This document shows, in pieces, positions 11,956 to 37,960 of a stretch of 64,000 bases of DNA. Under the pieces are notes generated by a model. The model was not told the DNA's origin. It made no database searches and saw only the letters and a program-made list of their open reading frames with translations. Position 1 is the first letter of the stretch, and the number at the start of each line of letters is the position of its first letter. Source of the stretch: an archaeon (GTDB taxonomy: Archaea > Nanobdellota > Nanobdellia > Woesearchaeales > GW2011-AR9); contig JAUYKZ010000006.1 of assembly GCA_030704845.1 (NCBI GenBank), positions 18,046 to 82,045 on the forward strand. The letters are read 5' to 3'. The position numbers and the translations under genes were made by a program.

Positions 11956-14229
11956 TTATCTTGATGATGTGATAAACGTTTTTCCGTCTTTCGTCCAGAT
12001 CAGTTTTCCAATAGCCATATCACGGAAAAGCCAGGATCTTTCCCCTTTAGTCTTACCAGTATCCGGATCGATTGGACGCACAAGTATGTTATCATTTATG
12101 TCAGATTGGCCAATAACACCAGGCATCAGCTCATTAAGTGGAGCTAGACCATACCACCCTTGAATAAGGTCAACTTCCGGGTATTTATCTATCAGAACAA
12201 CAAGATGTGGCCTAAGTTCACCAGTAGAATCTGGAGGAGGTACCGTATTACAAGAACTATAAAATACCTTTTTTACATCTCCTTCTGGGAAGTCTTTAAA
12301 ATCAATTCGATCTATCGGGTTATGGCTATCATCTTTAGTCTTTACTGATGGTGCATCACGCCAGATATAATCAGAATTTGCCCAATGATGTCCCGTGATT
12401 ACAAGATTTTTACTATTAGTTTTTGGTGGTAAATCTCTGCTGTTAAGAATAAGACATCCAGTGCCACTTTTCCTGCACCATTTTTCCATGCTTTGACCCG
12501 ATGATGCGGCGTCACCAGCAATAATAATCGTCGTGGTTGGGGAAGAACCATCTTTCGATTTAATCACTTTACCAAAAGATTCAGCAAATTTCTGTTCGCA
12601 ATCCTTGTCAACATAACAGGTGACAAATGAGTTTTGTCTTGATGATTCAAAGTAGTTTTCAACATATGCTGACTTTTCGATGTTATAAGTTTTATATCCA
12701 CTGTTAGAAGACCAATGTTGCATCTTTTCTTCATTGGTAACTGGATCTTTAGAAGTCACATCAAAACGACCAACATTCAGTTTAGCCAAATCTTTGTCTA
12801 CGGAGACATCACCATTGCCACTAACAATGACTTCGCTAATAACTTTTTGTTCGGTGGAAGAAATATCTTTCTTTTCGGTTGAACGATAAATTGCTTTTCC
12901 GTTATCAATATGATCAACCAGAACTTTATTAAAATAAGCAGAAGATGAGACAGAAACTTCATCTCCTTGTTTAATTCCCACGTAACGCAATTCTGTACGA
13001 TAACTCGGATCTCTAGTGTTACCATCACGATTAATTAAACAACTGAAACCAGTTTTACAGAAAGTATCTCTTTCTTTATTCTCAGAGTAGTATAATCGAT
13101 CACCTTTAAAATTAATTGTCGTGTCACCAAGTTGATCTTTCATTGACCCATCACCAATTAAAATAAATTCGTTCATAGCCGAAAGAAATTGATTCTTTGT
13201 CCTATCTCCCGGCTCAAGGACTGTTCCTTTAATCACCTGGGCAGTAGCTGTATATTCTTCAACACCAAAAGTATAATGTTTTGAAGATACTGACGATAAA
13301 CGTAAAAAGTCTTCACCTTCTGTACTTGCGACAATATCACCCTCATCTCCCCTAAAAAAACGAAAACTACCTTTGTAAAGAATCTTTCCAGAAACTGATT
13401 CCCGCGTCGGGGTATCTTTAGGGAGAACTTTTTTTGGTAAATTAACCTCAATACTTGCACACTTTCTGATATCTGTACCAGGACAATCAGCAAAAATAGC
13501 GACTTCTTTAACATCGGCATCAATTTGAAGAGTTCCCCCGGTGATCTGATAATTATTCTGTCCTTCAGTGATTAATGGATTTCCACCCGGACCTCTAGCT
13601 AATTTGAAATCCTCGGTTCCGCTAACTTCACCAAATGGAACTATTAATCTTCCATCTTTTAATACTCTAGAACCGAGAGGTACTTCATTAACTGTAAATT
13701 TAGTAGTTCTAATATTTTTATTAACATTATCCAGTCCAAGAATTTCTATTTTTTTTCCATCAAAAGAATTGATTTCCGCCCCTTCATCTTTAACACCATA
13801 ATTATAAAACCAAACTTCTTTGATTTTATAATTGTCATTTAAGATGGAAGTATCTTGCTGAAGTCTTGTACTTACATCTAGAAAAATTGGATTAAGTTTT
13901 CCGTTGATTAAAGAAGGATTAAAATTTACAGCGCGGACAAGATCTGGAGTTTGAAGTTTATTACTTACAGATGGATTAATATCCAAAGCAGAAGCTAATT
14001 TGTCAGTCGTGACAATAGACATGTCGCTTATTTTCCCTTGTTCAATAGCGGTAGCTAAATCTGTGGGTCCAAGATTATTCACATAATCAGGACTACTATA
14101 ATCTGCTTGCTGGTCTTCTGCTGGACAATCTGGTGGACATTCAGCTAAAGCTAACGGAAGTACAACTAACAAAACCATCATAACCAACAGTACTTTTCCT
14201 ACCTTACTTCCAGTAACCATCTTTTCCAT
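11956..14229 (-). CDS. Large Sec-secreted surface protein (757 aa), Cys-containing, no recognisable catalytic motif
   Basis: Signal peptide MEKMVTGSKVGKVLLVMMVLLVVLPLALA; start overlaps the stop of the upstream prepilin-like gene. Confidence 0.6.
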   Translation of the reverse strand: MEKMVTGSKVGKVLLVMMVLLVVLPLALAECPPDCPAEDQQADYSSPDYVNNLGPTDLATAIEQGKISDMSIVTTDKLASALDINPSVSNKLQTPDLVRAVNFNPSLINGKLNPIFLDVSTRLQQDTSILNDNYKIKEVWFYNYGVKDEGAEINSFDGKKIEILGLDNVNKNIRTTKFTVNEVPLGSRVLKDGRLIVPFGEVSGTEDFKLARGPGGNPLITEGQNNYQITGGTLQIDADVKEVAIFADCPGTDIRKCASIEVNLPKKVLPKDTPTRESVSGKILYKGSFRFFRGDEGDIVASTEGEDFLRLSSVSSKHYTFGVEEYTATAQVIKGTVLEPGDRTKNQFLSAMNEFILIGDGSMKDQLGDTTINFKGDRLYYSENKERDTFCKTGFSCLINRDGNTRDPSYRTELRYVGIKQGDEVSVSSSAYFNKVLVDHIDNGKAIYRSTEKKDISSTEQKVISEVIVSGNGDVSVDKDLAKLNVGRFDVTSKDPVTNEEKMQHWSSNSGYKTYNIEKSAYVENYFESSRQNSFVTCYVDKDCEQKFAESFGKVIKSKDGSSPTTTIIIAGDAASSGQSMEKWCRKSGTGCLILNSRDLPPKTNSKNLVITGHHWANSDYIWRDAPSVKTKDDSHNPIDRIDFKDFPEGDVKKVFYSSCNTVPPPDSTGELRPHLVVLIDKYPEVDLIQGWYGLAPLNELMPGVIGQSDINDNILVRPIDPDTGKTKGERSWLFRDMAIGKLIWTKDGKTFITSSR

Positions 14230-15530
14230 GTTCCGCCAAATTCATTTTTTACATTTACCCTTATTGAATGGGTTCCTAGATCATCTTTTGTTGGCGTAAA
14301 ATTAATAATTCCGGTTTCAGAATTGATATCAAATAAATAACTTTCATCGGTATATGTAATTCCACCACGATCATTAGAAATTGGAATTTTAAACACGTAC
14401 TCCTTACCTACTTCAGCAGTCTGTTGAGGAATGTTTTGAATTATTGGTAAATTGCCCGGATTTACATTAACATTTATCACAAAAGGAGCAATATTTTCAT
14501 TGTCAAAATTATCAGTTGCAATAACATAATAAAGATATTCGTCATTGGGAAAATTTTTTGTATCTAACGTAATAATTCCAGTTACCGGATTTATCGGAAG
14601 AGTTGATGGATCAGTGCTGAATGACACTTTATCATTTTCGCTTCTTGCTTCCAAATTATAAATTCCAGGCATGTCAATATTCCATTCGTCAGGTAAGATA
14701 ATTGAAACTGAAGGTTCTGGTTCAAAATCAGTAGGCGGAATTTCTATCGTTTCGGTAACCCAATCAAATCCTAAACCAAACCGATATAAAATTGGTTCTT
14801 CCTCTAACCCTTCATCGTAAACAAAATTTAGAACAACGTCTTTCCCCTCATCTCCGTACTGATTAAACCCGTAAATGAAATTATTCTCATATGCGGCCGA
14901 AGATAAAGGACTTATTTGGAATGTTTCCGGAGATTCTTCCTGCGTTTCAAGGTATCCTTGAACAAATTCATATTTACTGACAAAATCAAACGGAATCAAT
15001 GAAATGAATTGATTATAACCGCTTTCCGTTTCTCCAAGTTTTATTGTGACCGGATGTGATAAAGAAACCCTTGTTCCTGAACGTGTGAAAGCAATTTTAA
15101 TTTCGGGCTGGCCAGCATTAATAACATATCCTTTTTCTTTGAAAAAATTAAAATTATCGAGACATTCTTCATATATAGGGATAGCTCCCAAAGCAGTCTG
15201 GTCTGCAACAGTATTCAAAGATGGCAAGGAAGATTGTTTATTTTGGAAATAGTATGGAAGCGCAAAAACATTTTCTTTCTCAGTGAACGAAAGAAGAGAA
15301 AGGTCTAACGGATATTGGTTATATCCACCATTGTTAAGAGTTGTATATAACGATTTAGTTGTACTTTTTTCTAAACATTGTTCAATAAATGAAGTAACTG
15401 AAGCCGTTTCAACTTGATTAATAGATTTAGTATCACCAAAATTATCTTTAAGGAAGAAAAAAGATCCAGCTACAAGCAGAATAATTATACCTATAATTAT
15501 AAAAATCGTAACTTGTCCCCTTTTTTGCAT
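14199..15530 (-). CDS. Large protein with a class-III (prepilin/archaellin-like) signal peptide (443 aa), a putative pilin-like adhesin
   Basis: N-terminus MQKRG|QVTIFIIIGIIILLVAG: a basic residue-Gly cleavage-site-like motif followed by a hydrophobic helix; paralogous N-terminus in ORF 24676..27198. Confidence 0.55.
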   Translation of the reverse strand: MQKRGQVTIFIIIGIIILLVAGSFFFLKDNFGDTKSINQVETASVTSFIEQCLEKSTTKSLYTTLNNGGYNQYPLDLSLLSFTEKENVFALPYYFQNKQSSLPSLNTVADQTALGAIPIYEECLDNFNFFKEKGYVINAGQPEIKIAFTRSGTRVSLSHPVTIKLGETESGYNQFISLIPFDFVSKYEFVQGYLETQEESPETFQISPLSSAAYENNFIYGFNQYGDEGKDVVLNFVYDEGLEEEPILYRFGLGFDWVTETIEIPPTDFEPEPSVSIILPDEWNIDMPGIYNLEARSENDKVSFSTDPSTLPINPVTGIITLDTKNFPNDEYLYYVIATDNFDNENIAPFVINVNVNPGNLPIIQNIPQQTAEVGKEYVFKIPISNDRGGITYTDESYLFDINSETGIINFTPTKDDLGTHSIRVNVKNEFGGTWKRWLLEVR

Positions 15531-15645: not shown

Positions 15646-16089
15646 TTATTTTAACATCTCTCTTAATTTTAAGTATTGTTTCTTTGTAAATTCAATAGCT
15701 TTTTGAGCATAGTTCTTCTCAAGCATTGTTCCATAATAAAGCATTCCATTCCTGAAATATCTTAATTGGTCTGCAAACTGAACATCACGTTCATTAAATC
15801 CTACGGTTCTCATATAAGCTACTTCTGCTTCGTGAGCTCCAAAGCCAGATGCATTATATCCATCTAAAAGCATTTTTGCTCTTATCAACTCCATTAAAAT
15901 ATCATAACATACTTTTATTAACATGTTTGCAGTATCATCAGAAACTTTTAATTTTTCTATTATCTTTAATAAATTGTTATAGCTATTTTCAGATTCTTCA
16001 ATTAGGAATTTTGCTCTTGATTTGTCAGGATATTGTTTCTTTACAACATTATCCTTAATAAACTCTTCAAAATGCCTTATTGCCTTCAT
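15646..16089 (-). CDS. HEPN-like protein paired with the upstream nucleotidyltransferase (putative toxin partner). The Rx4-6H motif is not canonical.
   Basis: 4-nt overlap with the NT gene; all-helical ~150 aa; synteny with MNT. Confidence 0.45.
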   Translation of the reverse strand: MKAIRHFEEFIKDNVVKKQYPDKSRAKFLIEESENSYNNLLKIIEKLKVSDDTANMLIKVCYDILMELIRAKMLLDGYNASGFGAHEAEVAYMRTVGFNERDVQFADQLRYFRNGMLYYGTMLEKNYAQKAIEFTKKQYLKLREMLK

Positions 16090-16634
16090 AATTCAACGCC
16101 ACCAACCAGAACAATACCATTGAAAAGGTTCTCTTTTAAGTGTTTATGTATTTTATTGAATGATTCATAGAAATTAATGTTTATTGTTCTTTCAAGTAAT
16201 TTTTCATAGACAGACACCACAAACAGTTTATCTTTTCTTCCGATTACTGCAATATCTATATCTGAGTTTATTAAGTCATCTCCTCTTGCATATGATCCAA
16301 ATAGTATTATAGTTGCTCCAGCAAATTCCTTTTCAAGAAAATCCGCTAGCCCAGATTCATAAATTTGTCGTAGGTTGTCTACTCGTTTTAACTGCATAAC
16401 TGTTTGAGAACTTCTATTTAACTCTATAGACCACCTTTTAGATGCTTTATCCTGCTGTACTTTTACAAAGTGCTCTTTTTCCAATGTTGGAATTGCCTTC
16501 ATAACAGCTGGTTGTGATACATCCAGAAACAGGGATATTTGTCTTTGGTTTAATGCTGTGCCAGCTTTTACAAATAATAATCTCAAAATCTCCTGTTGCA
16601 AGTTTGTTAACTTAAGTTTATATGTGTTTGCCAT
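16086..16634 (-). CDS. wHTH-fused minimal nucleotidyltransferase (MNT-type antitoxin-like)
   Basis: GSYARGDDLINSDIDIAV polymerase-beta-type NT motif; N-terminal winged-helix. Confidence 0.7.
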   Translation of the reverse strand: MANTYKLKLTNLQQEILRLLFVKAGTALNQRQISLFLDVSQPAVMKAIPTLEKEHFVKVQQDKASKRWSIELNRSSQTVMQLKRVDNLRQIYESGLADFLEKEFAGATIILFGSYARGDDLINSDIDIAVIGRKDKLFVVSVYEKLLERTININFYESFNKIHKHLKENLFNGIVLVGGVEL

Positions 16635-16877: not shown

Positions 16878-17699
16878 TTATCCCTTAACAATTCTTGCCA
16901 CATATAACCTAGCCCAAGCAATTACTATCAGAAGGAAACCTAACCCAATCATAGTAAGAATCCATTTTGGCTGGTAAATAAATACTCTTTGGATAAGGTA
17001 ACTTATCACGTTAGCTGCAAGCATTACAACTAGCATCAGAAGAATTCCATACGATAACAAAGACCAATTTTTCTTCCAGTTATGGAAAGACATCCCAATA
17101 GATTCCCAAACCTTGTTACTTTTTGCAAAAGATTTGTATGCAAGGAACATGAAAACAAGGAATATAAACATGAAGAAAGCCGTAATCATGTTCGTATAAA
17201 ATAAACCTAACACTTGATTCTTAAAAGGAGTAAGGAATACGAACGGCGATTTAAGAGCAATTGATAGTAAAGAGTATAACACTCCGGTTACAATCATCAA
17301 CAATGAAATTAAATTCCATTTAAGGAAACTTCTCACGGAAGTATGTTTCTTCATGATAGTATCCCAGATAACCATTCTTGAGAATGAATATACGGCTAAC
17401 GCTAAGAGTATTATTAAAAGAGAACCGCCAACCATGATAAACAAGAAATTTCTTACATTATCCGAGAATGCTTTATTATAATCTTGTGAGCCGGAAAGAA
17501 GTGCTGTTTTAAGTTGTTCAACAGTTAAACCGCCACTGATATCGTAAGCTTTCGCAGTTAGCAATGAGCCGAAACTTAAGAATAACCCGATGATTAGCGC
17601 GAACGCTATAACGTCAGTTAAAAGAGTTTTCCAAAAAATGTGATCTAATTTAAACGAATCCAAGAATGTTTTCAGATGTCGATTTATTTTTAGTTTCAT
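16878..17699 (-). CDS. Polytopic integral membrane protein (about 6-7 TM)
   Basis: Multiple ~20-aa hydrophobic segments; 1-nt spacing from the upstream 604-aa gene. Confidence 0.55.
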   Translation of the reverse strand: MKLKINRHLKTFLDSFKLDHIFWKTLLTDVIAFALIIGLFLSFGSLLTAKAYDISGGLTVEQLKTALLSGSQDYNKAFSDNVRNFLFIMVGGSLLIILLALAVYSFSRMVIWDTIMKKHTSVRSFLKWNLISLLMIVTGVLYSLLSIALKSPFVFLTPFKNQVLGLFYTNMITAFFMFIFLVFMFLAYKSFAKSNKVWESIGMSFHNWKKNWSLLSYGILLMLVVMLAANVISYLIQRVFIYQPKWILTMIGLGFLLIVIAWARLYVARIVKG

Positions 17700-17700
17700 T

Positions 17701-19515
17701 TTATATATTCAACGTAACTCCGGGTGATGACGAAGTAATTGAAGGTAATCTTTGGGAACCTTCATATTCAATTTCTCCTTTCTCTATTTCTTTTATGTCA
17801 GCACAAATTTCTGAGATGTCACTTCCAACAGAGGATTTTATGTTATGTTTAAACCGGATACATGCTCGCGTGAAATCTTCCGGCCTATATTTAGCAACGA
17901 TAGCCCCATCTGTATCTCCGTTATTTAATTGAATTACATCCGTACCAGTTATGAATTCTCCCCGTTTATACACTGGAAGAGCTTGACCAGATCCTTCTAG
18001 GAATATGTTGAATGAAACAGCTACCCCGTTCTCGTCAACGAATGGAGTGAATTTCTCATCCTGCGGAGCAGTTACTCTCCAATGAATTTTATAAAATTTA
18101 CCTTTAACTGGTTCTTCATCATCTTCGTTCTTGTAACAGAACTCATCATTTTTACATACGAAATCTTCCGGACAAATAAATTCTTGATCTGATTCCTCGT
18201 CAGGATTTCTGTCGCAAAGAATAAATGATTGTCTTGGCGATTTTTCTACTTGAAGTGCGCCAACAGATTGGTACGTTCCAGATTGAGTTCTGAAAAATGC
18301 AGTAGATTGTCCAGGGGATTCTGCTCTTTGCCGATCGTCATTTAAACAAACCGCTGAACTAGCGAATGCAGGAAGATCTGCAAAAAAGTTAAGAGTTTCA
18401 TCATTTGCATCTATCAACCAGCCATTCTTAGTTGCATCTGGGAAAATTAAATTTGATAATGATCTATAACTTCCTAAAGCTTGCAATGCTCTAATTCCGC
18501 CGCCAGCAACTTGACCGAAACCACTTTGACCTTTAACAAGAGTTTGGTATCCTTCGCTACCAATTCCTTGCCACCATCGAGTTTTTACTGAAGCAGATTC
18601 CGCATCTTGTCTTGCTGCTTCTGCGCGTTTTTTAGTAGCTGCGTATTCTGATGATTGGATTGATTCTGCATTTTGTTGCACTTCTAGATCAGATTTTACT
18701 TCTCCAGTTTTTGTTTCTCTCCATAATTCACCTTCTTTTACATAGGTTTTTCCGCCAATTGTTGCTTGCCAACCATCGACTGCTGACGAGAATAATTCTT
18801 TGTTTTCTTTTAATTCTTGTTGGGTGTGGATAAATGAATCTGCTTTCTCTTCATAACCAACGGCAAGACCTTCATATAAAGTTGCTGCATCGTTGTCTGA
18901 TAGTTTGAAGTTTTTGCAGGTTGGGGTGTGGAAACAATTGGTTGCTTGTTTTATTTCTTCACGATTTAAACCTTTTTTAGGAACAGTAGTAAGCCCCATC
19001 TCTTCTGCGATATTGGCGACTGCTATCCTTTCGGCATTATTTTGTTGTTTTAATTCTTCATCTATTTTAGCTGCTTTGGCTTGAAGACCGTTTGCTTTCG
19101 CTTTTTGTTGTGCTGCTTGGAGATTTTTTAAAGCTGTTGGGTTCGCCTTTATTTTGTCTGTGTATTCTTTTTGTTTTGCTTGATCGACTTGCTTACTATT
19201 TTGATAGAATATCCCATTTTCATCAACACTAATGTCGTCAAATAATGTTTCAGTAAATTGTGCTGCAACTTGAACACCACTCGGAGTAGTTGAAGACGCA
19301 GAAGCTTTTAACCATTCATCGAAAGTAGCTGGAATGGGGTTTGCTGGGGGATTTTTCACTCTTTCTTCCTTTTCATTTAACAACAAGCTAAGGGGACTAC
19401 CCTTAATAACAGCCTCTCCTGTTTCACCGTTAGACTTAACCTCTTCTTGAGCGACTATCAACGTACTTAAAACTATTACAAAGAGTACAAACATCATCGC
19501 TTTTTTTAAATTCAT
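17701..19515 (-). CDS. Sec-secreted protein (604 aa) with an Ala/Gln/Lys-rich coiled-coil segment and a Cys/acidic-rich C-terminal module
   Basis: Signal peptide MNLKKAMMFVLFVIVLSTLIVA; CxxxxxC clusters near the C-terminus. Confidence 0.55.
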   Translation of the reverse strand: MNLKKAMMFVLFVIVLSTLIVAQEEVKSNGETGEAVIKGSPLSLLLNEKEERVKNPPANPIPATFDEWLKASASSTTPSGVQVAAQFTETLFDDISVDENGIFYQNSKQVDQAKQKEYTDKIKANPTALKNLQAAQQKAKANGLQAKAAKIDEELKQQNNAERIAVANIAEEMGLTTVPKKGLNREEIKQATNCFHTPTCKNFKLSDNDAATLYEGLAVGYEEKADSFIHTQQELKENKELFSSAVDGWQATIGGKTYVKEGELWRETKTGEVKSDLEVQQNAESIQSSEYAATKKRAEAARQDAESASVKTRWWQGIGSEGYQTLVKGQSGFGQVAGGGIRALQALGSYRSLSNLIFPDATKNGWLIDANDETLNFFADLPAFASSAVCLNDDRQRAESPGQSTAFFRTQSGTYQSVGALQVEKSPRQSFILCDRNPDEESDQEFICPEDFVCKNDEFCYKNEDDEEPVKGKFYKIHWRVTAPQDEKFTPFVDENGVAVSFNIFLEGSGQALPVYKRGEFITGTDVIQLNNGDTDGAIVAKYRPEDFTRACIRFKHNIKSSVGSDISEICADIKEIEKGEIEYEGSQRLPSITSSSPGVTLNI

Positions 19516-19829
19516 ACTATCTTAATCCCATTCTTTACTGCTTCTTTAACTATACCAATCTCTTTCTTTCGTTTATTAAATTCTTCAGGAGTTAAACATA
19601 CAAAATCAACAGGATATCCTAGATCCCACATCAGATATAATGGTGGAGATCTCTTTAAATGTCTTTTTCCTCGGAATTTTGATGAGACCATAATCAAATC
19701 TACGTCACTATCTTTTCTCACCTTTCCAGTTGCCCTTGAACCGAATAAGTACATTGAGCGTAAAGGGTACTCCTTAGAGATACTTTCTGCAAAACCTTTC
19801 AAAGATCCAATTAATTTTTTTGTATCCAT
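19512..19829 (-). CDS. Minimal nucleotidyltransferase (MNT antitoxin-like)
   Basis: LFGSRATGKVRKDSDVDLIMV motif. Confidence 0.75.
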   Translation of the reverse strand: MDTKKLIGSLKGFAESISKEYPLRSMYLFGSRATGKVRKDSDVDLIMVSSKFRGKRHLKRSPPLYLMWDLGYPVDFVCLTPEEFNKRKKEIGIVKEAVKNGIKIV

Positions 19830-20188
19830 TGTAAAATTATTTCCGTAAGTTTTAGGATATATTCAGCTTCTTTTTTATTTACTTTCTCAAAAGGTAATTC
19901 ATTACCTTCTGGATATCTTACTTCCACATATACTGGGTTTATTTCAGCGCAGGCTTTAATAATATTGTCTGGTGCTCCAACTTCCCGCGCTAATTTTACT
20001 AAATCATGTATTCTTAATAAATCTTTATTTTTCTGCAGATAATGATATTTAAGAGATTTTTCAACCGCTTGTTGACAAAGTAAGGCCGTAACATAGTAAT
20101 CACCAGAAATTAAACTATTCTTAGCACTTTTAAGATCTCGTTTTGCTTGCTTCAACCATACCTCAACATCATTTCTCATTATTGACAA
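19811..20188 (-). CDS. HEPN domain protein (toxin-like partner of the MNT)
   Basis: AQQAVEKSLK ... LRIHDLVKL HEPN signature; overlaps both neighbours. Confidence 0.7.
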   Translation of the reverse strand: MSIMRNDVEVWLKQAKRDLKSAKNSLISGDYYVTALLCQQAVEKSLKYHYLQKNKDLLRIHDLVKLAREVGAPDNIIKACAEINPVYVEVRYPEGNELPFEKVNKKEAEYILKLTEIILQWIQKN

Positions 20189-20754
20189 TATACCTCTACA
20201 ACCTTAAAAACGTTTCCATAAATCAGATGATCCTTCCGTATCTCTATCGCTAAAGCATTCTTCCTACGTAAACTTTCAGCAAATCCTTTCCAAGTGCTAA
20301 ATTCTATGTTTATTTCCCGTGGAAAGACTCGTTTTGCCTTGTTAATATCATCTTTCTTTCCGCCAATAACAATTAAATCCAAATCTGAGCTTTCTTTTTG
20401 TCTTCCCTTTGCAAAACTTCCGAAAACAATTATCGTCTCTGCAAAAGGAATCAAGCCTTTCATAATCAATGAAAATTCACTCTCCTTCAAAAGAAAAGAG
20501 GCTTTATAAGTCTCCACAATCTGAATCATTTGCTTCGCGAGAACACTTTTCCTATTAAGAACATATTTTTTGTTCCTTCCCTCTTTTGTGAAGAGAATAA
20601 TTTTATCTTTTACTAACCCATTCAATATTGTAAGAGCATTCTGCGGACTTGTTCCTACCGCCCTTGAGATTTCTCTGCCAGTGAAAGAAGCAGAGTAGTC
20701 CCTCGTGTAAAGCGCAAGAATGTCCATTTTTTTAGACATATGTCTATTTTTCAT
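20179..20754 (-). CDS. wHTH-fused nucleotidyltransferase (MNT-like)
   Basis: VFGSFAKGRQKESSDLDLIVIGG motif; N-terminal HTH. Confidence 0.7.
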   Translation of the reverse strand: MKNRHMSKKMDILALYTRDYSASFTGREISRAVGTSPQNALTILNGLVKDKIILFTKEGRNKKYVLNRKSVLAKQMIQIVETYKASFLLKESEFSLIMKGLIPFAETIIVFGSFAKGRQKESSDLDLIVIGGKKDDINKAKRVFPREINIEFSTWKGFAESLRRKNALAIEIRKDHLIYGNVFKVVEVYCQ

Positions 20755-21184
20755 TGATTTTCTTCCTCAATTGGATAATATCAAGCGCTTCTACAATAGC
20801 ATGACATTTAACTACAAATTTCTTCACTTCAGGTAAATTATCCAATTCTTGCTTCTCTAAATAATACTGAGCCCGTATTCTTTTATATTTAAGATTAGAC
20901 ATAAAGCTGTAATCATTTCCATTAAACTCATCAATTATTGTCATCAGCTCTATCGTGCAGTCATGGATTTCTGATTTAATCCCGGCTTTCATCAAGATGG
21001 AATATAACGCATTATAGCACGCATAGTACGCCATTATAACATCCCATTTTGATCCAGTTCCAGAAATCTGCTGTAAGGTTTCTTGCGCCTCACTAAAATA
21101 CTTCTCAGATAAATTCTCATTCTCTTCAACAAGTTCAATTCCTTTTTTCTGTTTTAAACACCAGTCAATCTTACTTCGCGTCAT
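20744..21184 (-). CDS. HEPN-like helical protein, first gene of the HEPN-NT-HEPN-NT tetrad
   Basis: SEIHDCTIELM region; size and synteny; 11-nt overlap with the NT gene. Confidence 0.45.
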   Translation of the reverse strand: MTRSKIDWCLKQKKGIELVEENENLSEKYFSEAQETLQQISGTGSKWDVIMAYYACYNALYSILMKAGIKSEIHDCTIELMTIIDEFNGNDYSFMSNLKYKRIRAQYYLEKQELDNLPEVKKFVVKCHAIVEALDIIQLRKKINEK

Positions 21185-21278: not shown

Positions 21279-24200
21279 TTATCCTCCAGTTAACTCATTT
21301 AAATCTATATTCTCAGCCATGTCACAATATGGAAGTTTAGTTGCATCGGGCGTTTGTTCAATAGCTCCAATTACCGTATCTGTAATATCTACTAAGATGT
21401 TAAGACCGGTAGTAATTTTACACAGTGGAATAGCTGCTGATGTTCCAGCCGGATCAAAACAAAGATCTGCACAAGCGGCCATTTCTATCCATTTAATAAC
21501 TCCAACTAGAGATGTGAACGCTGCTTTGATAGCTTTTCCGATATATGAAATACTTCCCAGAGGAGTGAAGTCAAATAATGGGCCGTAAACGAATTCACAC
21601 ATTTGGATGTCATATAAAGCATCACATCCTTCAAATGTAGTAAGACCGGATGGAACTTCACGACCATAACATACAATTTTTCTACACATAACTTGTCTTG
21701 CTTTTTCTGCTTGATATAATAATCCTGGGACACATAAACCCAAACCAGAAGTATAAAGATTTTCATATAATGATGTTGCTGGAATACCCAACAAACCTCT
21801 TCCAGAAAGAAGATTATAAGTTTCTAGAATATTGTCTTGGAATTGACCATATGCACCCAAATTTCCTGGATCTGGACTACAGCTTAAAATATCGATAGGA
21901 ATCTGGATATATTCTACAAATTCGAATGCCGTTTTCTGGCCAACTTCTAAGGTTAAACACTGACCACGTAAGGCCGTTCCAACACCAACTGCTCCACCAC
22001 CAGTCTTCTCTACAACTGTTGCAACTCCAACTAAATTACCGCTTACCAAATCAATAAATCTACTAGTCTTATCAATTATTGAAAGAATGTTTCCAATATA
22101 TCTAGCCCATTCAAGCGCAGTGTTAATATAACTCAATGCATCAAGGAATTCAAACCAATCTTCATTTTTCAATGCCCTTACTTTCTTCGCTAAATTTTCA
22201 TCCAATGCACCAATAGTACTAAATCCAAAAGGAACTTCAACTTGCACTTCCTGTAATTCAGGAGAAGCAATAGCATCTTTACCAACTTTAGAAAATACTC
22301 TTAATTGACATGAATAAGACACAACAGCTTCCGCAAATCCGCCTTCAGTAGCAAACATTTCTCTGCCATTGAATGGAGAAAATTCAAGAATCATTGTAGC
22401 CGTAGGTTCAATCTCACCGTCAGGATAATTTCCACCATATAATATAGTCCGGCTTACTTCAGGACCGCTAGAACTTTCGTTACCTTGATCAACAGGCGAA
22501 CAACCAACTAGATCTGCACGTAACATTTGCGCTTGCGGATGTCCGGCTCCGAATTTAAGTTCAACCGGCATTCTAGTATAAGTTAACTCGGTAGTATCTA
22601 AATCAATGAAATCTATTAAAGGACGTGGAGCTCTTTGAAGTTCCCAGTAATCAGGATTTTCTTCCGTAACTAATCCCAATAAATTAATTTTAAATTTCCC
22701 ATCTCTTCCAGAAACAACATTCTTAGATTCACCTTCCCAATCAATAGCCTTAGCTTCATTACCAGCAGTATCATGAACAAGAATCTCAACATCCGCACTT
22801 GGATCTGGACCGGATTTCATTGGAGTTGTTTCAATGGAACATACCCATCTTGCTTCGGAACGGACACAACTTTCTTCATTGAAAACTTGCCATCCGTCAC
22901 CTAATCCTCTACTAGCACTTCCTTCAGGGAAAGATAATTCTGAATCAAGAACGATATCTTTTGTATTTACTAATATATTAAGTCCGTTTGTTTCTCTTAT
23001 AGTGAAATCAATTCTTAACCGATCATTACTTTGGAAGAAATCTTTCACGCCAATTAAATCTGAAACACCAAATAATTCTACTTTCTCTATTACAGGTGCG
23101 GAAGCATCGGAGAATAATTGTACGTCCGGTGAACTTCCTTTATTACCCACGTTATCTTCAAACACAGATAACCCAGTTATCGCAACATCTGTACTTCCAG
23201 CAAAACTGACATCCCAGTAACAGAACAATTTTCCGTCTTCCGTTTCTGAACATTCATCAGGAGCTTCGGCTGCTCCCATGCCAAATGCACTTAACCTTGC
23301 TCTAATTCCGTTCTCGGTGATTCCTGCTCCTTGATCTCTAACTAATAAGATAATTCTATTTTCTCCTTTCATGATGAAACTCTTGTCATCAAATATTTGT
23401 TCAGTACCCATGAATTCAATCACGGGAGGAGAAGTATCTACCACAAAATCACTTCTGCCAATTCTTTGTTCAACCGAATTGCCAAACCTATCGGTTACAG
23501 TTACGGTTAATTCTAAACTGGTAGATGGCTGAATCTCAACATTCTCCCAAGTACAATGATATAAACCTAGTTCTTTATCATCTTCATAACAATTTGCGGG
23601 AGTTCTATCTAAATCAACTTGAATCGATGATGCAGTTACGCTAGCTAAATTATTTTCTTTAACATCAAGAGTAATATCCGTTTTGATAGAAAATTCGCCG
23701 ATAAATTTTCCTAAATCAGTGAAATTAAGAGTTCCGCCAAGAATAACCGGGTCAATGAAATCGCTTCTGAAAGAACCGATTGCAGGATGTTCAGTAATAT
23801 GTCCTAAACGATCTTCAGCAGTTATCTTTATTCTTTTAACTCCTTCCCCAGCAAGTTCCGCTTGAAGTTTTCCACCAAATTCAGCAATATTACTATATTT
23901 AAATTCTTTCTGACCAACTTCTAATCTTGAACCACCAATGGTTTGTAAGATTTGGTTAGTATCGGCGTCAATAATTTCAATCTTGCTTATGCCCACTGAA
24001 GGAATGTCTCCCCGGGTATCTTTAACAAGGAAATCAAGTTCAACTTCACCAAGAAGATTTTGTTTTAATTTAGTTATCTCAACTGTTGGAGCAGTTCCAT
24101 CTGCTCTAATTACATCTGCGTTTTTTACAGTTGCTGGATTTAAAACTTCATTTAAGTAATGATAAACAACTTCAAACAAGTATGCATCTTCACGAACACC

Positions 24201-24515
24201 ATCCGTTAAAGGACTGATATATTCACAAGAAACTCCTTGCGGTGTACTTGCGCAAGCATTGAATGGTGATTCTTTACTTCCAACTTTCATTACAACATTC
24301 TTTGGATCAATATTTTCTTCAGTTGCCGAAGTAATTAAAGCGTTAACTTTCCAAGTGTCCCCATCAGCGTCAATAAATTTGTCAATGTTAGCTTCTCCAG
24401 AATTTTTAGTTATGCTAACAAGTGGAACAGCCATAACACTTGCACTGTAAACAGGTAGAGTTACAAATAAGAAAATCATCCACAAACCTACCACTTGCAA
24501 CGCTCTTTTTTCCAT
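21279..24515 (-). CDS. Giant Sec-secreted protein (1078 aa), function unknown
   Basis: Signal peptide MEKRALQVVGLWMIFLFVTLPVYSASVMA; long uninterrupted ORF. Confidence 0.6.
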   Translation of the reverse strand: MEKRALQVVGLWMIFLFVTLPVYSASVMAVPLVSITKNSGEANIDKFIDADGDTWKVNALITSATEENIDPKNVVMKVGSKESPFNACASTPQGVSCEYISPLTDGVREDAYLFEVVYHYLNEVLNPATVKNADVIRADGTAPTVEITKLKQNLLGEVELDFLVKDTRGDIPSVGISKIEIIDADTNQILQTIGGSRLEVGQKEFKYSNIAEFGGKLQAELAGEGVKRIKITAEDRLGHITEHPAIGSFRSDFIDPVILGGTLNFTDLGKFIGEFSIKTDITLDVKENNLASVTASSIQVDLDRTPANCYEDDKELGLYHCTWENVEIQPSTSLELTVTVTDRFGNSVEQRIGRSDFVVDTSPPVIEFMGTEQIFDDKSFIMKGENRIILLVRDQGAGITENGIRARLSAFGMGAAEAPDECSETEDGKLFCYWDVSFAGSTDVAITGLSVFEDNVGNKGSSPDVQLFSDASAPVIEKVELFGVSDLIGVKDFFQSNDRLRIDFTIRETNGLNILVNTKDIVLDSELSFPEGSASRGLGDGWQVFNEESCVRSEARWVCSIETTPMKSGPDPSADVEILVHDTAGNEAKAIDWEGESKNVVSGRDGKFKINLLGLVTEENPDYWELQRAPRPLIDFIDLDTTELTYTRMPVELKFGAGHPQAQMLRADLVGCSPVDQGNESSSGPEVSRTILYGGNYPDGEIEPTATMILEFSPFNGREMFATEGGFAEAVVSYSCQLRVFSKVGKDAIASPELQEVQVEVPFGFSTIGALDENLAKKVRALKNEDWFEFLDALSYINTALEWARYIGNILSIIDKTSRFIDLVSGNLVGVATVVEKTGGGAVGVGTALRGQCLTLEVGQKTAFEFVEYIQIPIDILSCSPDPGNLGAYGQFQDNILETYNLLSGRGLLGIPATSLYENLYTSGLGLCVPGLLYQAEKARQVMCRKIVCYGREVPSGLTTFEGCDALYDIQMCEFVYGPLFDFTPLGSISYIGKAIKAAFTSLVGVIKWIEMAACADLCFDPAGTSAAIPLCKITTGLNILVDITDTVIGAIEQTPDATKLPYCDMAENIDLNELTGG

Positions 24516-24649: not shown

Positions 24650-24686
24650 AAAATTCATAGATTTCTGTTCGGAATCTATGAATTTT
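24650..24686 (-). terminator. Perfect 14-bp-arm hairpin overlapping the stop of the 840-aa gene
   Basis: AAAATTCATAGATT-9nt-AATCTATGAATTTT followed by T-run. Confidence 0.4.
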
Positions 24687-27198
24687 TAGTATATGTTGGT
24701 TCTAACGATGCTCTAACTTCCGGTCTTCTTGAAACTTCACCAAGCAATCCTGAAATTTGCATATCTTCAATGATTCTTCCCCCAGCCATAACTGAAGTGT
24801 CTTTACATACATCAAATAAACATCCCACACCAGGAATACAACTGTATCCGCCACATTCTTTCATTGGCACTTTAACTTGTTCTGGAATTGAAACAATATC
24901 TTGCACAGGGACATATAAAGTAATCTCATCCGCAGTATATAATTGTTCAGGAGTTATCGTTAAATAAGTAGCTGGTGTTTCCCAGGCAATATTACCCGTA
25001 ACAAAACCTTCGGAAACACTTTCATCAAGAGTGAATTTTTCTTCTTTATCATAACCTAGGATTGAATAAGTTGAACTTCTAGTTTCAGCTGGAATTCTTA
25101 CTTGCTGAGATGTAGTTGCGAATCCACTTATTTTATACACACCAGGAACTAACTGGACATTACTTCCAGCAGAACCTTTAACAGCTACCGAAGCAACAAA
25201 CTCATTACTTATAACTTCACCATGGAATCCGCTCACTCTTTCAAGAGTTAAAAGAACTTCTTCATCATCTCTTAAGTCAACAGATCTGTCATTCAAGTAA
25301 TAGTCATTATATTTAGTGATACTTTGATTTACTTCAAGAGATATAATTGGGGTTCCGGCACCAAGAACACTAGAACCGCTATCAAAGAAACATTGTTCTG
25401 CTCCTTGCGAACAAGATATATCACTGTAAGGAATAAAACTTACCCCATCGCCTGCTTGAGTTGGACCTGATCGGGTATATTTACATTCTAAAGCACGGAT
25501 ACATTTCTGGACTGGTTTTTTCTTAATATTAACATTAATCGTTTTGATTCTATCCATTTCTATAACTTTTTCAGTTGGTGCATTTGCAACCGCATATCCC
25601 AGAACAGCTGGCTGATCTTGATAATTATATGTGTCTATCGGATAGAAATTTGATAAGTAACCTAAAGCAGCAAAATTAATAACTCCACCATATACCGCAG
25701 GATATTTACTTTCTAATTCTCCACTTTGATCAGTTAACCCCATTTCACAACTTTGATCATCCGGAATTGTAAATCCGATTTTAACAGCTTCAATTGGTTC
25801 TTTAGTGAAAGAATCAACTACGACCGTTTTAAGCAATTCGGTATCTCGATGTGCTTCATCACAAGATATAGGAGATATTCCTTTTGGATAAACTTCCCGA
25901 ACAGATTCATCCTCAGCAGGTCTGTTGTTTCTAATATTAGATTCTAAGGCCATAACAAATCTGTAACCTTCGCCATTAAATGCAGCTTCATCTTTAATTG
26001 TAACAAGGACAGGGTAACTGACATCATAATGAGTTTCATATTGTTGATTTCCAAATGATAAGATTTCATAATTAATGTAAATACTGTTTGGTTTTATGAT
26101 TCCATCTTCGCTGTTTGTTTTAAAGTAAGGATTCCAGCCAAAATAATCAAATGAAACGCCCACATCATCAGCTCCACTTAATGGAAGAACCATATTATCT
26201 ACAACATGCTGAGCTAACCGTTCAGATTCAGGGAATGTTGAATAATAAAATCTTTCACTACCTAAAAATCTAAGCATTGGGACATAAGAGGTTAACAATC
26301 CTTTATATTGTTGTTCAACTGTATCTTCCTGCCAAGATAAAGAAGAAAATAATTGGTATCCGGTATCTGAAGTTGGAGGAAGCGCTTGAGCATCTTTCCT
26401 AGAATAAACTGAAATCAATTCCAATCCTTGCCGTTCCAAGAAATTAAATTCTTTTTCAGCATTTGCGATTTGTTCAGCAACTTCATAATAATGTCTTAAA
26501 TCTAACGGCACTCTTACAAAAAATACATTTAAATCAGTTGAAGCATCTCCTATTGAAACACTAACATCCATGTCCATTCGGAAATCAACCAAACCATCGC
26601 CGATAGTAACTTTAATCGTTTTATCTGGGTCTTGCACAACGTCAAATCCTTGAGAAGTAAATGGAGCGTAATCGTTTAGGCAACCATCAATTCTTTCATC
26701 AATAAACCTTTCAAGTTGAGATTCCATGCTTAACGCCGGATCATCTGCTTTTTTAATTTCTGGTTTTAAAGATGAGATTGCAATATTTTTAGCAGAATTT
26801 GGAGGCGTGTTATAATGCCAGTAAGGAACTTTAAGAGGTTCAAGATTTAATCCATCGCTATCTGTTGGATTAGTTGAAGAAAATTCCCCAGCCAACTCTG
26901 GATAGATATAACCGCCTTGATCTCCTAGAATAAGTAGCCCTCGTTTTGCAAGTTGTCCAACACATTGTTCGGTATAAGATTGAACCGGTCTAAATTCTTC
27001 GGGAACACTACTTAAAATTGGCAAACCTTCAGAAGTAAATTTTTGTTGGATAGAGCCCGATGTAAAATAAAGTATCCCTGCGAATGTAAAAAGAATAACG
27101 ATTCCGATAATAATAAATATCGTGATCTGCCCTTTCTTTGAAGAGAAGCCAAACCCTCCGGTATTACATCTACTAATACTACCTCTTTTTATCACCAT
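24676..27198 (-). CDS. Giant protein (840 aa) with a class-III prepilin-like signal peptide, paralogous at the N-terminus to ORF 14199..15530
   Basis: ...SSKKG|QITIFIIIGIVILFTFAG; palindromic TTTATAAA ~27 nt upstream of the ATG. Confidence 0.6.
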   Translation of the reverse strand: MVIKRGSISRCNTGGFGFSSKKGQITIFIIIGIVILFTFAGILYFTSGSIQQKFTSEGLPILSSVPEEFRPVQSYTEQCVGQLAKRGLLILGDQGGYIYPELAGEFSSTNPTDSDGLNLEPLKVPYWHYNTPPNSAKNIAISSLKPEIKKADDPALSMESQLERFIDERIDGCLNDYAPFTSQGFDVVQDPDKTIKVTIGDGLVDFRMDMDVSVSIGDASTDLNVFFVRVPLDLRHYYEVAEQIANAEKEFNFLERQGLELISVYSRKDAQALPPTSDTGYQLFSSLSWQEDTVEQQYKGLLTSYVPMLRFLGSERFYYSTFPESERLAQHVVDNMVLPLSGADDVGVSFDYFGWNPYFKTNSEDGIIKPNSIYINYEILSFGNQQYETHYDVSYPVLVTIKDEAAFNGEGYRFVMALESNIRNNRPAEDESVREVYPKGISPISCDEAHRDTELLKTVVVDSFTKEPIEAVKIGFTIPDDQSCEMGLTDQSGELESKYPAVYGGVINFAALGYLSNFYPIDTYNYQDQPAVLGYAVANAPTEKVIEMDRIKTINVNIKKKPVQKCIRALECKYTRSGPTQAGDGVSFIPYSDISCSQGAEQCFFDSGSSVLGAGTPIISLEVNQSITKYNDYYLNDRSVDLRDDEEVLLTLERVSGFHGEVISNEFVASVAVKGSAGSNVQLVPGVYKISGFATTSQQVRIPAETRSSTYSILGYDKEEKFTLDESVSEGFVTGNIAWETPATYLTITPEQLYTADEITLYVPVQDIVSIPEQVKVPMKECGGYSCIPGVGCLFDVCKDTSVMAGGRIIEDMQISGLLGEVSRRPEVRASLEPTYTKNS

Positions 27199-37800: not shown

Positions 37801-37960
37801 GATGTGTTAAATGTACATATGGCTCATTACTATGATGTGATAGCGTATAAGATTAAACCCATACTCCATCATGTTCAACCATTGCCGCCAGGATTTGGCC
37901 ATTCCTGAAGGCACCTATTGCCCGTAACCTCTTTTGAGAGATTTTCGGGAACATTAAATG

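What the first reader, a model, noticed from the sequence alone, without database searches (positions are those of the whole stretch)
14199..15530. Paralogous class-III (prepilin-like) signal peptides on 443-aa and 840-aa proteins
The N-termini MQKRG-QVTIFIIIGIIILLVAG (14199..15530) and ...SSKKG-QITIFIIIGIVILFTFAG (24676..27198) share the motif basic-basic-Gly then Q(V/I)TIFIIIGI. This is the architecture of archaeal type IV pilin/archaellin precursors cleaved by a prepilin peptidase after the Gly. Pilins of 443 and 840 aa are unusually large, which suggests pilus-tip or minor-pilin adhesins. The 840-aa protein also has a 19-aa pre-sequence before the basic-Gly site.
Basis: partly seen in the sequence, partly recalled or inferred. 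Interest (0 to 1): 0.6.

Follow-up and report, generated by a model that had tools for sequence, protein, structure and literature searches.

The report
Prepilin-type leaders on Woesearchaeota surface proteins
The two proteins do share a prepilin-type N-terminus, but they belong to a very large, undescribed family of DPANN-archaeal surface proteins encoded in a conserved six-gene envelope cluster, and they look more like membrane-tethered adhesin-like proteins than giant pilus subunits.

Summary
Both ORFs lie on the minus strand and start with [KR]-G-Q-[VI]-T-I-F-I-I-I-G-I followed by about 22 hydrophobic residues.

The similarity goes beyond the signal peptide. The two proteins share an N-terminal alpha/beta domain of about 230 aa with two invariant Cys. 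A profile of this domain finds 8,760 protein clusters. No Pfam or NCBIfam model matches it and I found no paper describing it. Nearly every full-length member examined starts M-x-K-[KR]-[G/A/S]-Q-[VI]-T-x-F.

This junction matches the EppA processing sites of Methanococcus Epd pilins (KGQV, KGQI, RAQI). It also matches the locus-inferred small pilins beside T2SSE/T2SSF genes in related Woesearchaeota (KKA-QAAMEF).

In the 840-aa family the leader varies from 5 to 54 aa, while the [KR][GA]-Q junction stays fixed. That pattern fits a cleaved leader.

The pilin reading is weaker:
- the globular domain has no pilin-like Foldseek match;
- a variable, low-confidence linker separates it from the hydrophobic helix;
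- the genes sit in a conserved cluster, MetRS-A-B-C-D-E-F, with no pilus ATPase or platform gene.

No prepilin peptidase was found in the roughly 76 kb of this contig that I could read.

Best reading: surface proteins with a class III signal, tethered to the membrane as part of a new Woesearchaeal envelope module.

The parts
14199..15530 (-). Gene E: 443-aa protein with a class-III-like N-terminus, the shared N-domain and two Ig/cadherin-like domains
   Evidence: ORF. There are 38 homologues in Woesearchaeota/Nanoarchaeota MAGs. AF2 model has mean pLDDT 90.
15516..15530 (-). E leader MQKRG (residues 1-5), with the predicted cleavage after Gly5
   Evidence: G5 and Q6 are at least 90% conserved in 21 homologues. 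The leader is 5 aa long in 26 of 34 E-type sequences.
15447..15515 (-). E hydrophobic H-domain QVTIFIIIGIIILLVAGSFFFLK (residues 6-28)
   Evidence: Kyte-Doolittle mean 3.08. Helix 4-31 in the AF2 model. F10, I11, G14 and I15 are nearly invariant.
14745..15425 (-). E shared N-domain (residues 36-262): alpha/beta fold with invariant C52 and C123
   Evidence: AF2 gives pLDDT 91 and pTM 0.80. No Pfam hit. No Foldseek PDB or BFVD match at E<=1e-3. The profile finds 8,760 clusters.
14202..14693 (-). E C-terminal tandem Ig/cadherin-like domains (residues about 280-443)
   Evidence: Pfam He_PIG at 362-433, E 2e-6. Foldseek top matches are cadherins and protocadherins.
24676..27198 (-). Gene A: 840-aa paralogue with a long leader, the class-III-like junction, the shared N-domain and a C-terminal region of about 540 aa of unknown fold
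   Evidence: ORF. 348 homologues at E<=1e-3. At least 382 relatives in GTDB species genomes, all Woesearchaeota/Nanoarchaeota by record title or evidently mislabelled.
27130..27198 (-). A leader MVIKRGSISRCNTGGFGFSSKKG (residues 1-23)
   Evidence: In 112 family members the leader is 5-54 aa long (median 22) and rich in S/K/G/R/N. 56 of 103 long leaders begin M-x(1-3)-[KR][KR]?G.
27061..27129 (-). A hydrophobic H-domain QITIFIIIGIVILFTFAGILYFT (residues 24-46)
   Evidence: Q24, F28, I29, I30, G32 and I33 are invariant in 24 homologues. Kyte-Doolittle mean 2.94.
26290..27021 (-). A copy of the shared N-domain (residues about 60-303)
   Evidence: BLASTP against E. Matched by the N-domain profile over residues 20-303. 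This sequence was part of the profile.
21279..24515 (-). Gene B: 1078-aa secreted protein with a Sec-type signal peptide, Ig-like repeats and a Cys-rich C-terminal region
   Evidence: Only an N-terminal hydrophobic segment; 21 Cys. Weak Big_3_3 hit. Follows A in most of the related loci where sequence downstream of A was held.
17701..19515 (-). Gene C: 604-aa secreted protein, variable in length in other genomes (650-2620 aa)
   Evidence: Sec-type N-terminus. Conserved position after B.
16878..17699 (-). Gene D: 273-aa membrane protein with six hydrophobic segments
   Evidence: Hydropathy. Conserved position before the second N-domain paralogue. Only one conserved Asp and no GxGD motif.
11956..14229 (-). 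Gene F: 757-aa secreted protein whose start overlaps the end of E
   Evidence: ORF and Sec-type N-terminus. Homologue in the same position in L001.
27299..29389 (-). Methionyl-tRNA synthetase gene, the conserved upstream neighbour of the cluster
   Evidence: MetRS directly precedes A in about 40 of the 79 related loci that hold an A-type gene. Pfam families as.
15646..16634 (-). Nucleotidyltransferase gene with a downstream ~147-aa partner that has no Pfam hit (HEPN-like is inference), inserted between D and E; not part of the module
   Evidence: Pfam NTP_transf_2/Polbeta for 16086-16634. This pair is absent from the compact cluster in L001.
19512..21184 (-). Four small ORFs (inferred: two nucleotidyltransferase/HEPN-type pairs) inserted between B and C; not part of the module
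   Evidence: ORFs. An equivalent NTase-containing insertion follows B in L005.

Best explanation
Genes A (840 aa) and E (443 aa) are two paralogues of a large, so far undescribed Woesearchaeota/Nanoarchaeota family. A family member consists of a short basic leader, an invariant [KR]-[G/A/S]|Gln junction, a hydrophobic helix of about 22 residues, a variable polar linker and an alpha/beta ectodomain of about 230 aa that probably carries a disulfide.

Proposed mechanism:
1. The precursor inserts into the membrane with the N-terminus inside. (Inferred.)
2. The lineage's prepilin-type (class III) signal peptidase, which must accept Gln at +1 as EppA does, removes the leader after the Gly/Ala. (Inferred from the motif, not shown.)
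3. The mature protein stays held in the membrane by its N-terminal hydrophobic helix, and the ectodomain sits on a flexible tether. (Inferred.)
4. A and E, together with the six-helix membrane protein D, anchor or organise the three large Sec-secreted proteins B, C and F, which have no membrane anchor of their own. (Inferred.)

Together these would form a cell-surface complex encoded by the conserved MetRS-A-B-C-D-E-F cluster. E exposes two cadherin-like Ig domains, which suggests adhesion, possibly to a host cell. (Inferred.)

What is shown: the motif, its conservation, the shared domain, the synteny and the predicted topology.
For: Motif:
- 145 of 158 homologues match the junction pattern (the rest are mostly N-terminally truncated).
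- At -1 they have G (123) or A (22), and K/R dominate at -2 and -3. The selection pattern pre-required [GAS] at -1, Gln at +1 and restricted classes at +3, +5 and +9.
- Within those classes the residues are nearly fixed: T at +3 (142/145), F at +5 (144/145), G at +9 (142/145).
- 127 of 139 further cluster representatives match a looser version of the pattern.

The same junction is used by proven substrates. EppA processes M. maripaludis Epd pilins at KGQV, KGQI, KGQL and RAQI, and it needs Gln at +1 (PMC4371748).

The same junction is used by small class-III-signal proteins (inferred pilins) in the same lineage. They lie next to T2SSE plus two T2SSF genes: MNKKA|QAAMEF, NTKA|QFAMEY and SNKG|QAATEF in L089, and MVMKKKA|QAAMEF in L044. 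L044 also carries MetRS-A about 7 kb away.

The leader behaves like a removable pre-sequence. In the A family it is 5-54 aa long and poorly conserved, yet it always ends in the fixed junction.

Shared domain: BLASTP, alignment A4 with invariant E50, C52, GGY68-70, P92, C123 and F175, a confident AF2 model and 8,760 clusters.

Tether: pLDDT is below 50 at residues 32-38. The distance from Gln+1 to the first Cys ranges mostly 42-59 residues through polar or Pro-containing sequence.

Cluster: the gene order is the same in L001, L006 and L016. MetRS-A-B(-C-D-second paralogue) recurs in many of the 79 related loci that hold an A-type gene.

Topology: A and E have one N-terminal hydrophobic segment. 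B, C and F have only Sec-type signal peptides. D has six hydrophobic segments.

Adhesin-like C-terminus of E.

The lineage has the machinery. A conserved operon of a TPR-like protein, an ATPase and two platform genes occurs in the three Woesearchaeota loci fetched for it and, in the same arrangement, in L044; the ATPase has over 7,400 relatives. flaI, flaJ and flaK are reported in most Woesearchaeota MAGs (PMC11606122).
Against: - Cleavage is not demonstrated.
- No Peptidase_A24 gene was found in the window, in about 12 kb of flanks, or in 1.27 Mb of related loci. The rest of this genome could not be read.
- In the loci sampled, the GQ-T-F form of the N-terminus occurs only on members of this family (108 of 115 family ORFs, none outside it). 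Its conservation could therefore reflect a family-specific helix-helix contact rather than a peptidase site.
- Position +5 is Phe. The Epd pilins and the Woesearchaeal locus pilins have Glu there.
- The idea that A, D and E anchor B, C and F rests on synteny and topology alone.
Confidence: 0.45

Rival explanations
1. A and E are uncleaved N-terminal signal anchors (type II membrane proteins). On this reading the conserved K-R-G-Q-V-T-I-F-I-I-I-G segment is a family-specific transmembrane helix. It is conserved because it packs against a partner such as D or the paralogue, not because a peptidase recognises it. The long A leader is then simply a cytoplasmic tail.
For: - In the loci sampled, the exact GQ-T-F motif is confined to this one family.
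- No peptidase gene is seen anywhere in the sequence held.
- Basic residues before the helix fit the positive-inside rule, which any signal anchor obeys.
- A flexible linker after the helix is typical of tethered ectodomains.
- D, a six-helix membrane protein, is a conserved neighbour of the second paralogue.
- Pfam and NCBIfam class III/pilin models do not match.
Against: - A plain anchor does not explain why nearly every full-length sequence of a family with thousands of clusters fits a junction with a small residue (G/A/S) at -1 and Gln at +1.
- It also does not explain why that junction matches the one on small class-III-signal proteins (inferred pilins) of the same lineage and the known EppA sites.
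- The HMM misses are uninformative. The locus-inferred Woesearchaeal pilins used as a control were missed too.
Confidence: 0.3
2. A and E are genuine minor or tip pilins. After cleavage, their N-terminal helices are inserted into a type IV (Epd / system 1-like) filament that is assembled by the ATPase and platform genes encoded elsewhere in the genome. The large ectodomains are displayed as adhesins.
For: - The junction motif is the same as on the small class-III-signal proteins (inferred pilins) of the lineage.
- Woesearchaeal ATPase/platform operons often have no pilin gene beside them: none in L088 or L091, some in L089 and L044. Remote pilin genes are therefore normal here.
- Large class III proteins with Ig-like domains are proposed as minor pilins or adhesins in other archaea, for example arCOG02911 and DUF2341 proteins (PMC4858521).
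- E ends in cadherin-like domains.
Against: - The N-domain has no pilin, archaellin or pseudopilin Foldseek match.
- The hydrophobic helix does not continue into a helix packed on the head domain. It is followed by a linker of low confidence and variable length.
- Position +5 is Phe rather than Glu.
- The genes are fixed in a six-gene cluster with a polytopic membrane protein and three secreted proteins, rather than with pilus genes. Only 1 of the 87 related loci then in hand has T2SSE/T2SSF within 10 kb.
- Two paralogues per cluster and thousands of stand-alone 250-aa members suggest a membrane-proximal module rather than a filament tip.
Confidence: 0.18

Closest known systems
EppA-processed Epd type IV pilins of Methanococcus maripaludis (TFF 'system 1')
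   Same: The processing-site tetrapeptide is identical: KGQV, KGQI and RAQI there, RGQV, KGQI and KAQV here. Gln at +1 is invariant, the residues before the site are basic, and a hydrophobic H-domain follows directly. System 1 is reported in DPANN (bioRxiv 10.64898/2026.04.22.720090). Its hallmark of one ATPase plus two platform genes is present in related Woesearchaeota.
   Different: Epd pilins are small and carry Glu at +5. Here +5 is an almost invariant Phe, and the proteins are 250-1,000 aa with an unrelated alpha/beta ectodomain behind a flexible linker. They are not encoded in the pilus locus. No EppA gene was identified.
Sulfolobus substrate-binding proteins with class III signal peptides (PibD substrates, 'bindosome')
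   Same: These are large, non-filament extracellular proteins with a prepilin-type N-terminus. They are thought to stay attached through the N-terminal hydrophobic segment (the architecture is described from general knowledge). This is the closest analogue for how A and E would work.
   Different: The lineage is different (Crenarchaeota), the mature domains are unrelated ABC solute-binding folds, and the junction residues differ (K/R-A/G then I/L/S). No transporter genes lie near the cluster described here.
Large class III-signal proteins of archaeal T4P loci (arCOG02911 minor pilins of 250-550 aa; DUF2341/PilY-like adhesins)
   Same: They are large, score positive with FlaFind, contain Ig-like beta domains and have a proposed adhesin or minor-pilin role (PMC4858521). 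E also ends in Ig/cadherin-like domains.
   Different: Those proteins are all-beta and are encoded beside the ATPase and TadC genes. Here the conserved domain is alpha/beta, matches no Pfam family, and lies in a separate MetRS-linked cluster.

Membership tests
Archaeal class III (prepilin-type) signal peptide proteins | N-terminal motif: a charged residue at -2, G/A at -1, then small or hydrophobic residues. The FlaFind-type rule [KRDE][GA][ALIFQMVED][ILMVTAS]x3 is recalled from memory. | tested here: met
   E has R-G|Q-V-T-I and A has K-G|Q-I-T-I. In 145 homologues -1 is G or A (the selection pattern pre-required [GAS]), and -2/-3 are mainly K/R.
Archaeal class III (prepilin-type) signal peptide proteins | A hydrophobic H-domain of about 20 residues directly after the cleavage site, near the N-terminus | tested here: met
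   Kyte-Doolittle means are 3.08 (E) and 2.94 (A) over 19 residues starting 2-4 residues after the site. AF2 predicts helix 4-31.
Archaeal class III (prepilin-type) signal peptide proteins | Cleavage of the leader by a prepilin/preflagellin peptidase (PibD/FlaK/EppA) | not testable with these tools
   This needs mass spectrometry or a co-expression assay. The only indirect support is the variable leader with a fixed junction.
Archaeal class III (prepilin-type) signal peptide proteins | A Peptidase_A24 gene in the same genome | tested here: inconclusive
   None was found in the 64-kb window, about 12 kb of flanks, or 1.27 Mb of related loci. flaK is reported in most Woesearchaeota MAGs.
Archaeal class III (prepilin-type) signal peptide proteins | Match to curated class III signal, pilin or archaellin N-terminal models in Pfam or NCBIfam | tested here: inconclusive
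   A and E match no such model, even at E<=10 on the N-terminal 60-80 aa. The locus-inferred pilins of L089 and L023, used as a control, were missed as well, so the models are insensitive in this lineage.
EppA-type substrates (Epd pilins) | Gln at +1, which M. maripaludis EppA requires | tested here: met
   Both window proteins have Gln at +1. About 92% of 297 sequences fit a junction pattern that requires Gln there, and only a few full-length variants lack it. The requirement is documented in PMC4371748.
EppA-type substrates (Epd pilins) | Glu at +5 | tested here: not met
   Position +5 is Phe in 144 of 145 sequences. The Woesearchaeal locus pilins do have Glu at +5.
Type IV pilin / archaellin (filament subunit) | A continuous N-terminal alpha-1 helix whose C-terminal half packs on the globular head | tested here: not met
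   AF2 breaks the chain at residues 32-38 with pLDDT below 50. The spacing from Gln+1 to the first invariant Cys ranges mostly 42-59 residues, through polar or Pro-containing sequence.
Type IV pilin / archaellin (filament subunit) | A head domain with a pilin or archaellin fold | tested here: not met
Type IV pilin / archaellin (filament subunit) | Genomic or functional association with a PilB/FlaI ATPase and a PilC/FlaJ platform | tested here: inconclusive
   No such genes are in the window. Only L044 among the 87 related loci then in hand has them within 10 kb. Woesearchaeal machinery operons often lack adjacent pilin genes anyway.

The most novel reading that the evidence does not exclude
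The MetRS-linked A-B-C-D-E-F cluster may encode a previously undescribed cell-surface apparatus that is near-universal in Woesearchaeales. In this reading its membrane anchors (A, E and the thousands of stand-alone 250-aa relatives) are a new class of non-pilin substrates of the prepilin peptidase. DPANN archaea would then have repurposed the class III secretion signal to build a tethered adhesion or host-contact complex rather than a filament.
Probability: 0.35. Interest if true: 0.75.

Novelty: new variant of a known kind. Interest (0 to 1): 0.55.

Why it matters
DPANN archaea are thought to live attached to other cells, but the proteins that make contact are almost unknown.

This finding identifies a family of at least 8,760 sequence clusters with no Pfam or NCBIfam model. 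No paper in the searchable library describes it. It carries an almost invariant EppA-type prepilin junction and sits in a conserved six-gene envelope cluster beside core housekeeping genes.

If the leader is really cleaved, the known range of archaeal prepilin-peptidase substrates grows considerably. It would also give a concrete, testable candidate for the Woesearchaeal surface or attachment machinery.

If the leader is not cleaved, the family is a warning that FlaFind-type rules over-predict pilins in DPANN genomes.

Tried and rejected
- Pfam and NCBIfam scans of A-F and of the isolated N-termini gave nothing beyond He_PIG/Ig hits.
- PDB sequence searches with A, B and F gave nothing.
- Foldseek of the full E model returned only cadherin/Ig matches from the C-terminal domains. 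I therefore re-predicted the N-domain alone. Foldseek against PDB and BFVD gave no significant match.
- I tested whether D is a novel prepilin peptidase. It has only one conserved Asp and no GxGD motif, so I rejected the idea.
- I looked for a T4P ATPase, platform or A24 peptidase among window ORFs of at least 90-100 aa and in the flanks, and found none.
- Regex scans, and a phmmer search with a FlaK sequence recalled from memory, over 1.27 Mb of related loci found only the L044 ATPase/platform and no A24 peptidase. The weak phmmer hits were not A24 by Pfam.
- The stand-alone N-domain proteins P0026 and P0027 are not in pilus loci.
- The five tandem 240-aa genes in L005 are not pilins.
- The look-up of window:60206-61426 failed, probably because the start codon was called differently.
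- Literature searches for the motif strings and for DPANN/Woesearchaeota pilins found no description of this family.

Full report
**The observation**

The window is archaeal. It carries archaeal 16S and 23S rRNA genes and has about 34% G+C. The exact 443-aa protein is on record as a hypothetical protein, Q8Q01_01480, of an unclassified archaeal MAG on an 83-kb contig.

- 14199..15530, 443 aa, starting MQKRG|QVTIFIIIGIIILLVAG, here called E;
- 24676..27198, 840 aa, starting MVIKRGSISRCNTGGFGFSSKKG|QITIFIIIGIVILFTFAG, here called A.

A six-frame scan finds no other ORF in the window with a [KR][GA] junction followed by 20 strongly hydrophobic residues. The only other hit is the ordinary Sec signal peptide of the 604-aa ORF. 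No alternative start codon would shorten the A leader.

The resemblance is homology, not chance. BLASTP aligns E and A over 237 columns at 25% identity, E 4e-4, far beyond the hydrophobic segment. The alignment includes two Cys that are invariant in each family: C52 and C123 in E, C79 and C173 in A.

**What the proteins are**

E has 38 detectable relatives and A has 348. Every relative that carries a name comes from a Woesearchaeota or Nanoarchaeota MAG and is called hypothetical.

A profile of the shared N-terminal region (alignment A4) was searched exhaustively against 1.84 billion cluster representatives:
- 8,760 proteins match at E<=1e-3 and 6,597 at E<=1e-10;
- most are stand-alone proteins of 245-280 aa;
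- in all but one of the 150 listed matches the domain starts within the first ~40 residues (one starts at residue 191).

A and E are therefore members of this family that carry C-terminal extensions. Pfam and NCBIfam do not recognise the domain. No source gives any member a functional name. I found no paper describing it.

AlphaFold2 models are confident: pLDDT 90 for E and 91 (pTM 0.80) for residues 1-262. They show:
- a hydrophobic helix at residues 4-31;
- a break at residues 32-38 with pLDDT below 50;
- an alpha/beta domain built from three long helices, each followed by a beta-meander (residues 36-254);
- in E, two Ig-like domains after that.

**The N-terminus as a class III signal**

I aligned 145 homologues on the junction. 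The selection pattern pre-required [GAS] at -1, Gln at +1, [STAC] at +3, a hydrophobic residue at +5 and [GA] at +9. The evidence is therefore twofold: 145 of 158 sequences fit the pattern, and within the allowed classes the residues are nearly fixed.
- Position -1 is G (123) or A (22).
- Positions -2 and -3 are mainly K/R.
- Position +3 is T (142), +5 is F (144) and +9 is G (142).

Of 139 further cluster representatives, 127 match a looser version of the pattern, with Ser also seen at -1.

In the E family the leader is almost always 5 residues, M-x-K-R-G. In the A family it is 5-54 residues (median 22), rich in S/K/G/R/N and poorly conserved. It still always ends in the fixed junction. About half of the long leaders begin M-x-x-K-R-G, and three contain extra complete KRGQV copies. 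This suggests that the leader grew by tandem duplication of the original start.

A leader that varies in length in front of an invariant small-residue/Gln junction is what one expects of a removed pre-sequence.

The junction tetrapeptides are those at which EppA cleaves the M. maripaludis Epd pilins (KGQV, KGQI, KGQL, RAQI), and EppA requires Gln at +1 (PMC4371748).

The same junction occurs on small class-III-signal proteins, inferred here to be pilins from their size, N-terminus and position, in the same lineage:
- In L089, an operon of a T2SSE ATPase and two T2SSF platform genes is followed by small proteins starting MNKKA|QAAMEF, NTKA|QFAMEY and SNKG|QAATEF.
- In L044, the same machinery (Pfam-verified) is followed by MVMKKKA|QAAMEF. 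L044 also carries MetRS-A about 7 kb away.

The ATPase has more than 7,400 close relatives, about 66-70% identical across Woesearchaeota. A split platform is the hallmark of TFF system 1, which is reported in DPANN. flaI, flaJ and flaK are reported in most Woesearchaeota MAGs (PMC11606122).

The lineage therefore has the machinery and must have a peptidase that accepts Gln at +1. I could not show this for this particular genome. The window, about 12 kb of additional contig and 1.27 Mb of related loci contain no recognisable A24 peptidase.

**Why they are probably not pilus subunits**

1. The head domain does not resemble any solved pilin.
2. The hydrophobic helix does not run on into a helix packed against the head. 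It is followed by a polar linker, often containing Pro. As a result the distance from Gln+1 to the first invariant Cys ranges mostly 42-59 residues, and AF2 gives the linker low confidence. That describes a tether, not a rigid alpha-1 helix.
3. Position +5 is Phe, not the Glu found in Epd pilins and in the Woesearchaeal locus pilins.
4. The genomic context is a different, strongly conserved module.

In L001 the gene order is MetRS, A (786 aa), B (1102), C (822), D (268), E (441), F (727), then the S13/S4/S11/RpoD ribosomal cluster. This is the same order as in the window, where additional nucleotidyltransferase-type gene pairs are inserted. L006/L016 and L005 repeat the pattern.

The later genome scan and look-ups brought in 85 further loci. 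Of the 79 related loci that hold an A-type gene, about 40 show MetRS-A, and most loci where sequence downstream of A was held show A-B. Many continue with C, D and a second N-domain paralogue.

The predicted topology is as follows:
- B, C and F have Sec-type signal peptides and no other hydrophobic segment.
- D has six hydrophobic segments.
- A and E have only their N-terminal helix.

D has a single conserved Asp and no GxGD motif, so it is not an evident prepilin peptidase.

Only one of the 87 related loci in hand at that point has pilus machinery within 10 kb. This point is weakened by the fact that Woesearchaeal machinery operons often have no pilin gene beside them.

**Most likely mechanism**

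The evidence best supports proteins that carry a class III signal and are, I infer, processed by the lineage's prepilin peptidase. They would remain tethered to the membrane by the mature N-terminal helix, much like the class III substrate-binding proteins of Sulfolobus.

Two paralogues per cluster, together with D, would form the membrane base of a surface complex built from the large secreted proteins B, C and F. The cadherin-like domains of E point to adhesion.

What is shown: the motif and its conservation, the domain family, the synteny and the topology. What is inferred: the cleavage, the complex and the adhesive role.

Two alternatives remain open:
- **Uncleaved signal anchor.** It is favoured by the fact that, in the DNA sampled, the exact GQ-T-F form occurs only in this family. 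It does not explain the G/A/S-Gln rule shared with the locus-inferred pilins.
- **Minor or tip pilin.** It is not excluded, but it is the least consistent with the fold, the linker and the context.

**Comparison with what is known**

The signal belongs to a known kind, the EppA/Epd-type class III signal. Large class III proteins are known too. The mature domain, the size and uniformity of the family, and the MetRS-linked six-gene cluster appear to be undescribed.

Curated class III/pilin models miss both these proteins and the Woesearchaeal pilins inferred from locus context, so the lack of HMM matches says little either way.

I file this as a new variant of a known kind, of moderate to good interest. 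It gives a concrete candidate for the Woesearchaeal cell-surface or attachment apparatus, and a simple biochemical test: cleavage at G|Q.

Noticed in passing
window 15646-16634 and 19512-21184 (minus strand); L005 15789-16741: Small gene pairs of nucleotidyltransferase/HEPN (toxin-antitoxin-like) type interrupt the conserved A-F cluster in the window, after D and after B. A similar NTase pair follows B in L005. The compact cluster in L001 has none. The inter-gene gaps of this operon seem to be recurrent insertion sites. Only 16086-16634 was confirmed by Pfam (NTP_transf_2); its partner had no hit and 19512-21184 was not scanned.
   Followed up: partly
window 11956-14229 (protein F, C-terminal third); L001 11320-13503: F and its L001 homologue share a conserved ...L-V-[IV]-T-G-H-H... 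and ...[SA]-C-N-T-V... pair, with His before Cys. This order recalls clan CD (caspase/gingipain-like) cysteine peptidases. There is no Pfam or NCBIfam support, so this is untested speculation.
   Followed up: no
A-family leaders, e.g. P0054, P0083, P0122, P0017; window 27130-27198: Long leaders often begin M-x-x-K-R-G. Some contain two or three complete KRGQV copies, as if the leader arose by tandem duplication of the 5' end of the gene. It is unknown whether these are processed more than once.
   Followed up: partly
window 37960-38054 (minus strand): The tRNA-Ala(UGC) in the 16S-23S spacer is 95 nt long, which suggests an intron or an extended structure.
   Followed up: no
window 951-4331 (minus strand): A 1126-aa subtilase carries Ig-like and FN3 domains and a PGF-pre-PGF domain (TIGR04213), a domain NCBIfam names PGF-pre-PGF (associated, from memory, with PGF-CTERM/archaeosortase sorting). 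This would be a second kind of surface-anchoring signal in the same window. The neighbouring gene, 4335-5255, is an SppA signal-peptide peptidase.
   Followed up: no
window 11147-11932 (plus strand): This ORF is a YkuD-type L,D-transpeptidase domain protein in an archaeon, directly beside the surface-protein cluster. The enzyme family normally acts on bacterial peptidoglycan, so its role here is unclear.
   Followed up: no
L089 10001-19680; L044 1-3749; L088 and L091 7650-13332: Woesearchaeota share a conserved operon: a 610-780-aa HTH/TPR-like protein, a T2SSE ATPase and two T2SSF platform genes. In L089 and L044 it is followed by small pilins starting KKA|QAAMEFLMTYGWAILVV. Pfam and NCBIfam pilin models recognise none of these pilins.
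   Followed up: partly
loci L010, L012, L013, L016 and others: Many GTDB-representative records that hold the cluster are titled 'uncultured Methanosarcinales archaeon'. Their gene content and closest relatives are Woesearchaeota/Nanoarchaeota, so the titles look like mislabels from an automated pipeline.
   Followed up: no
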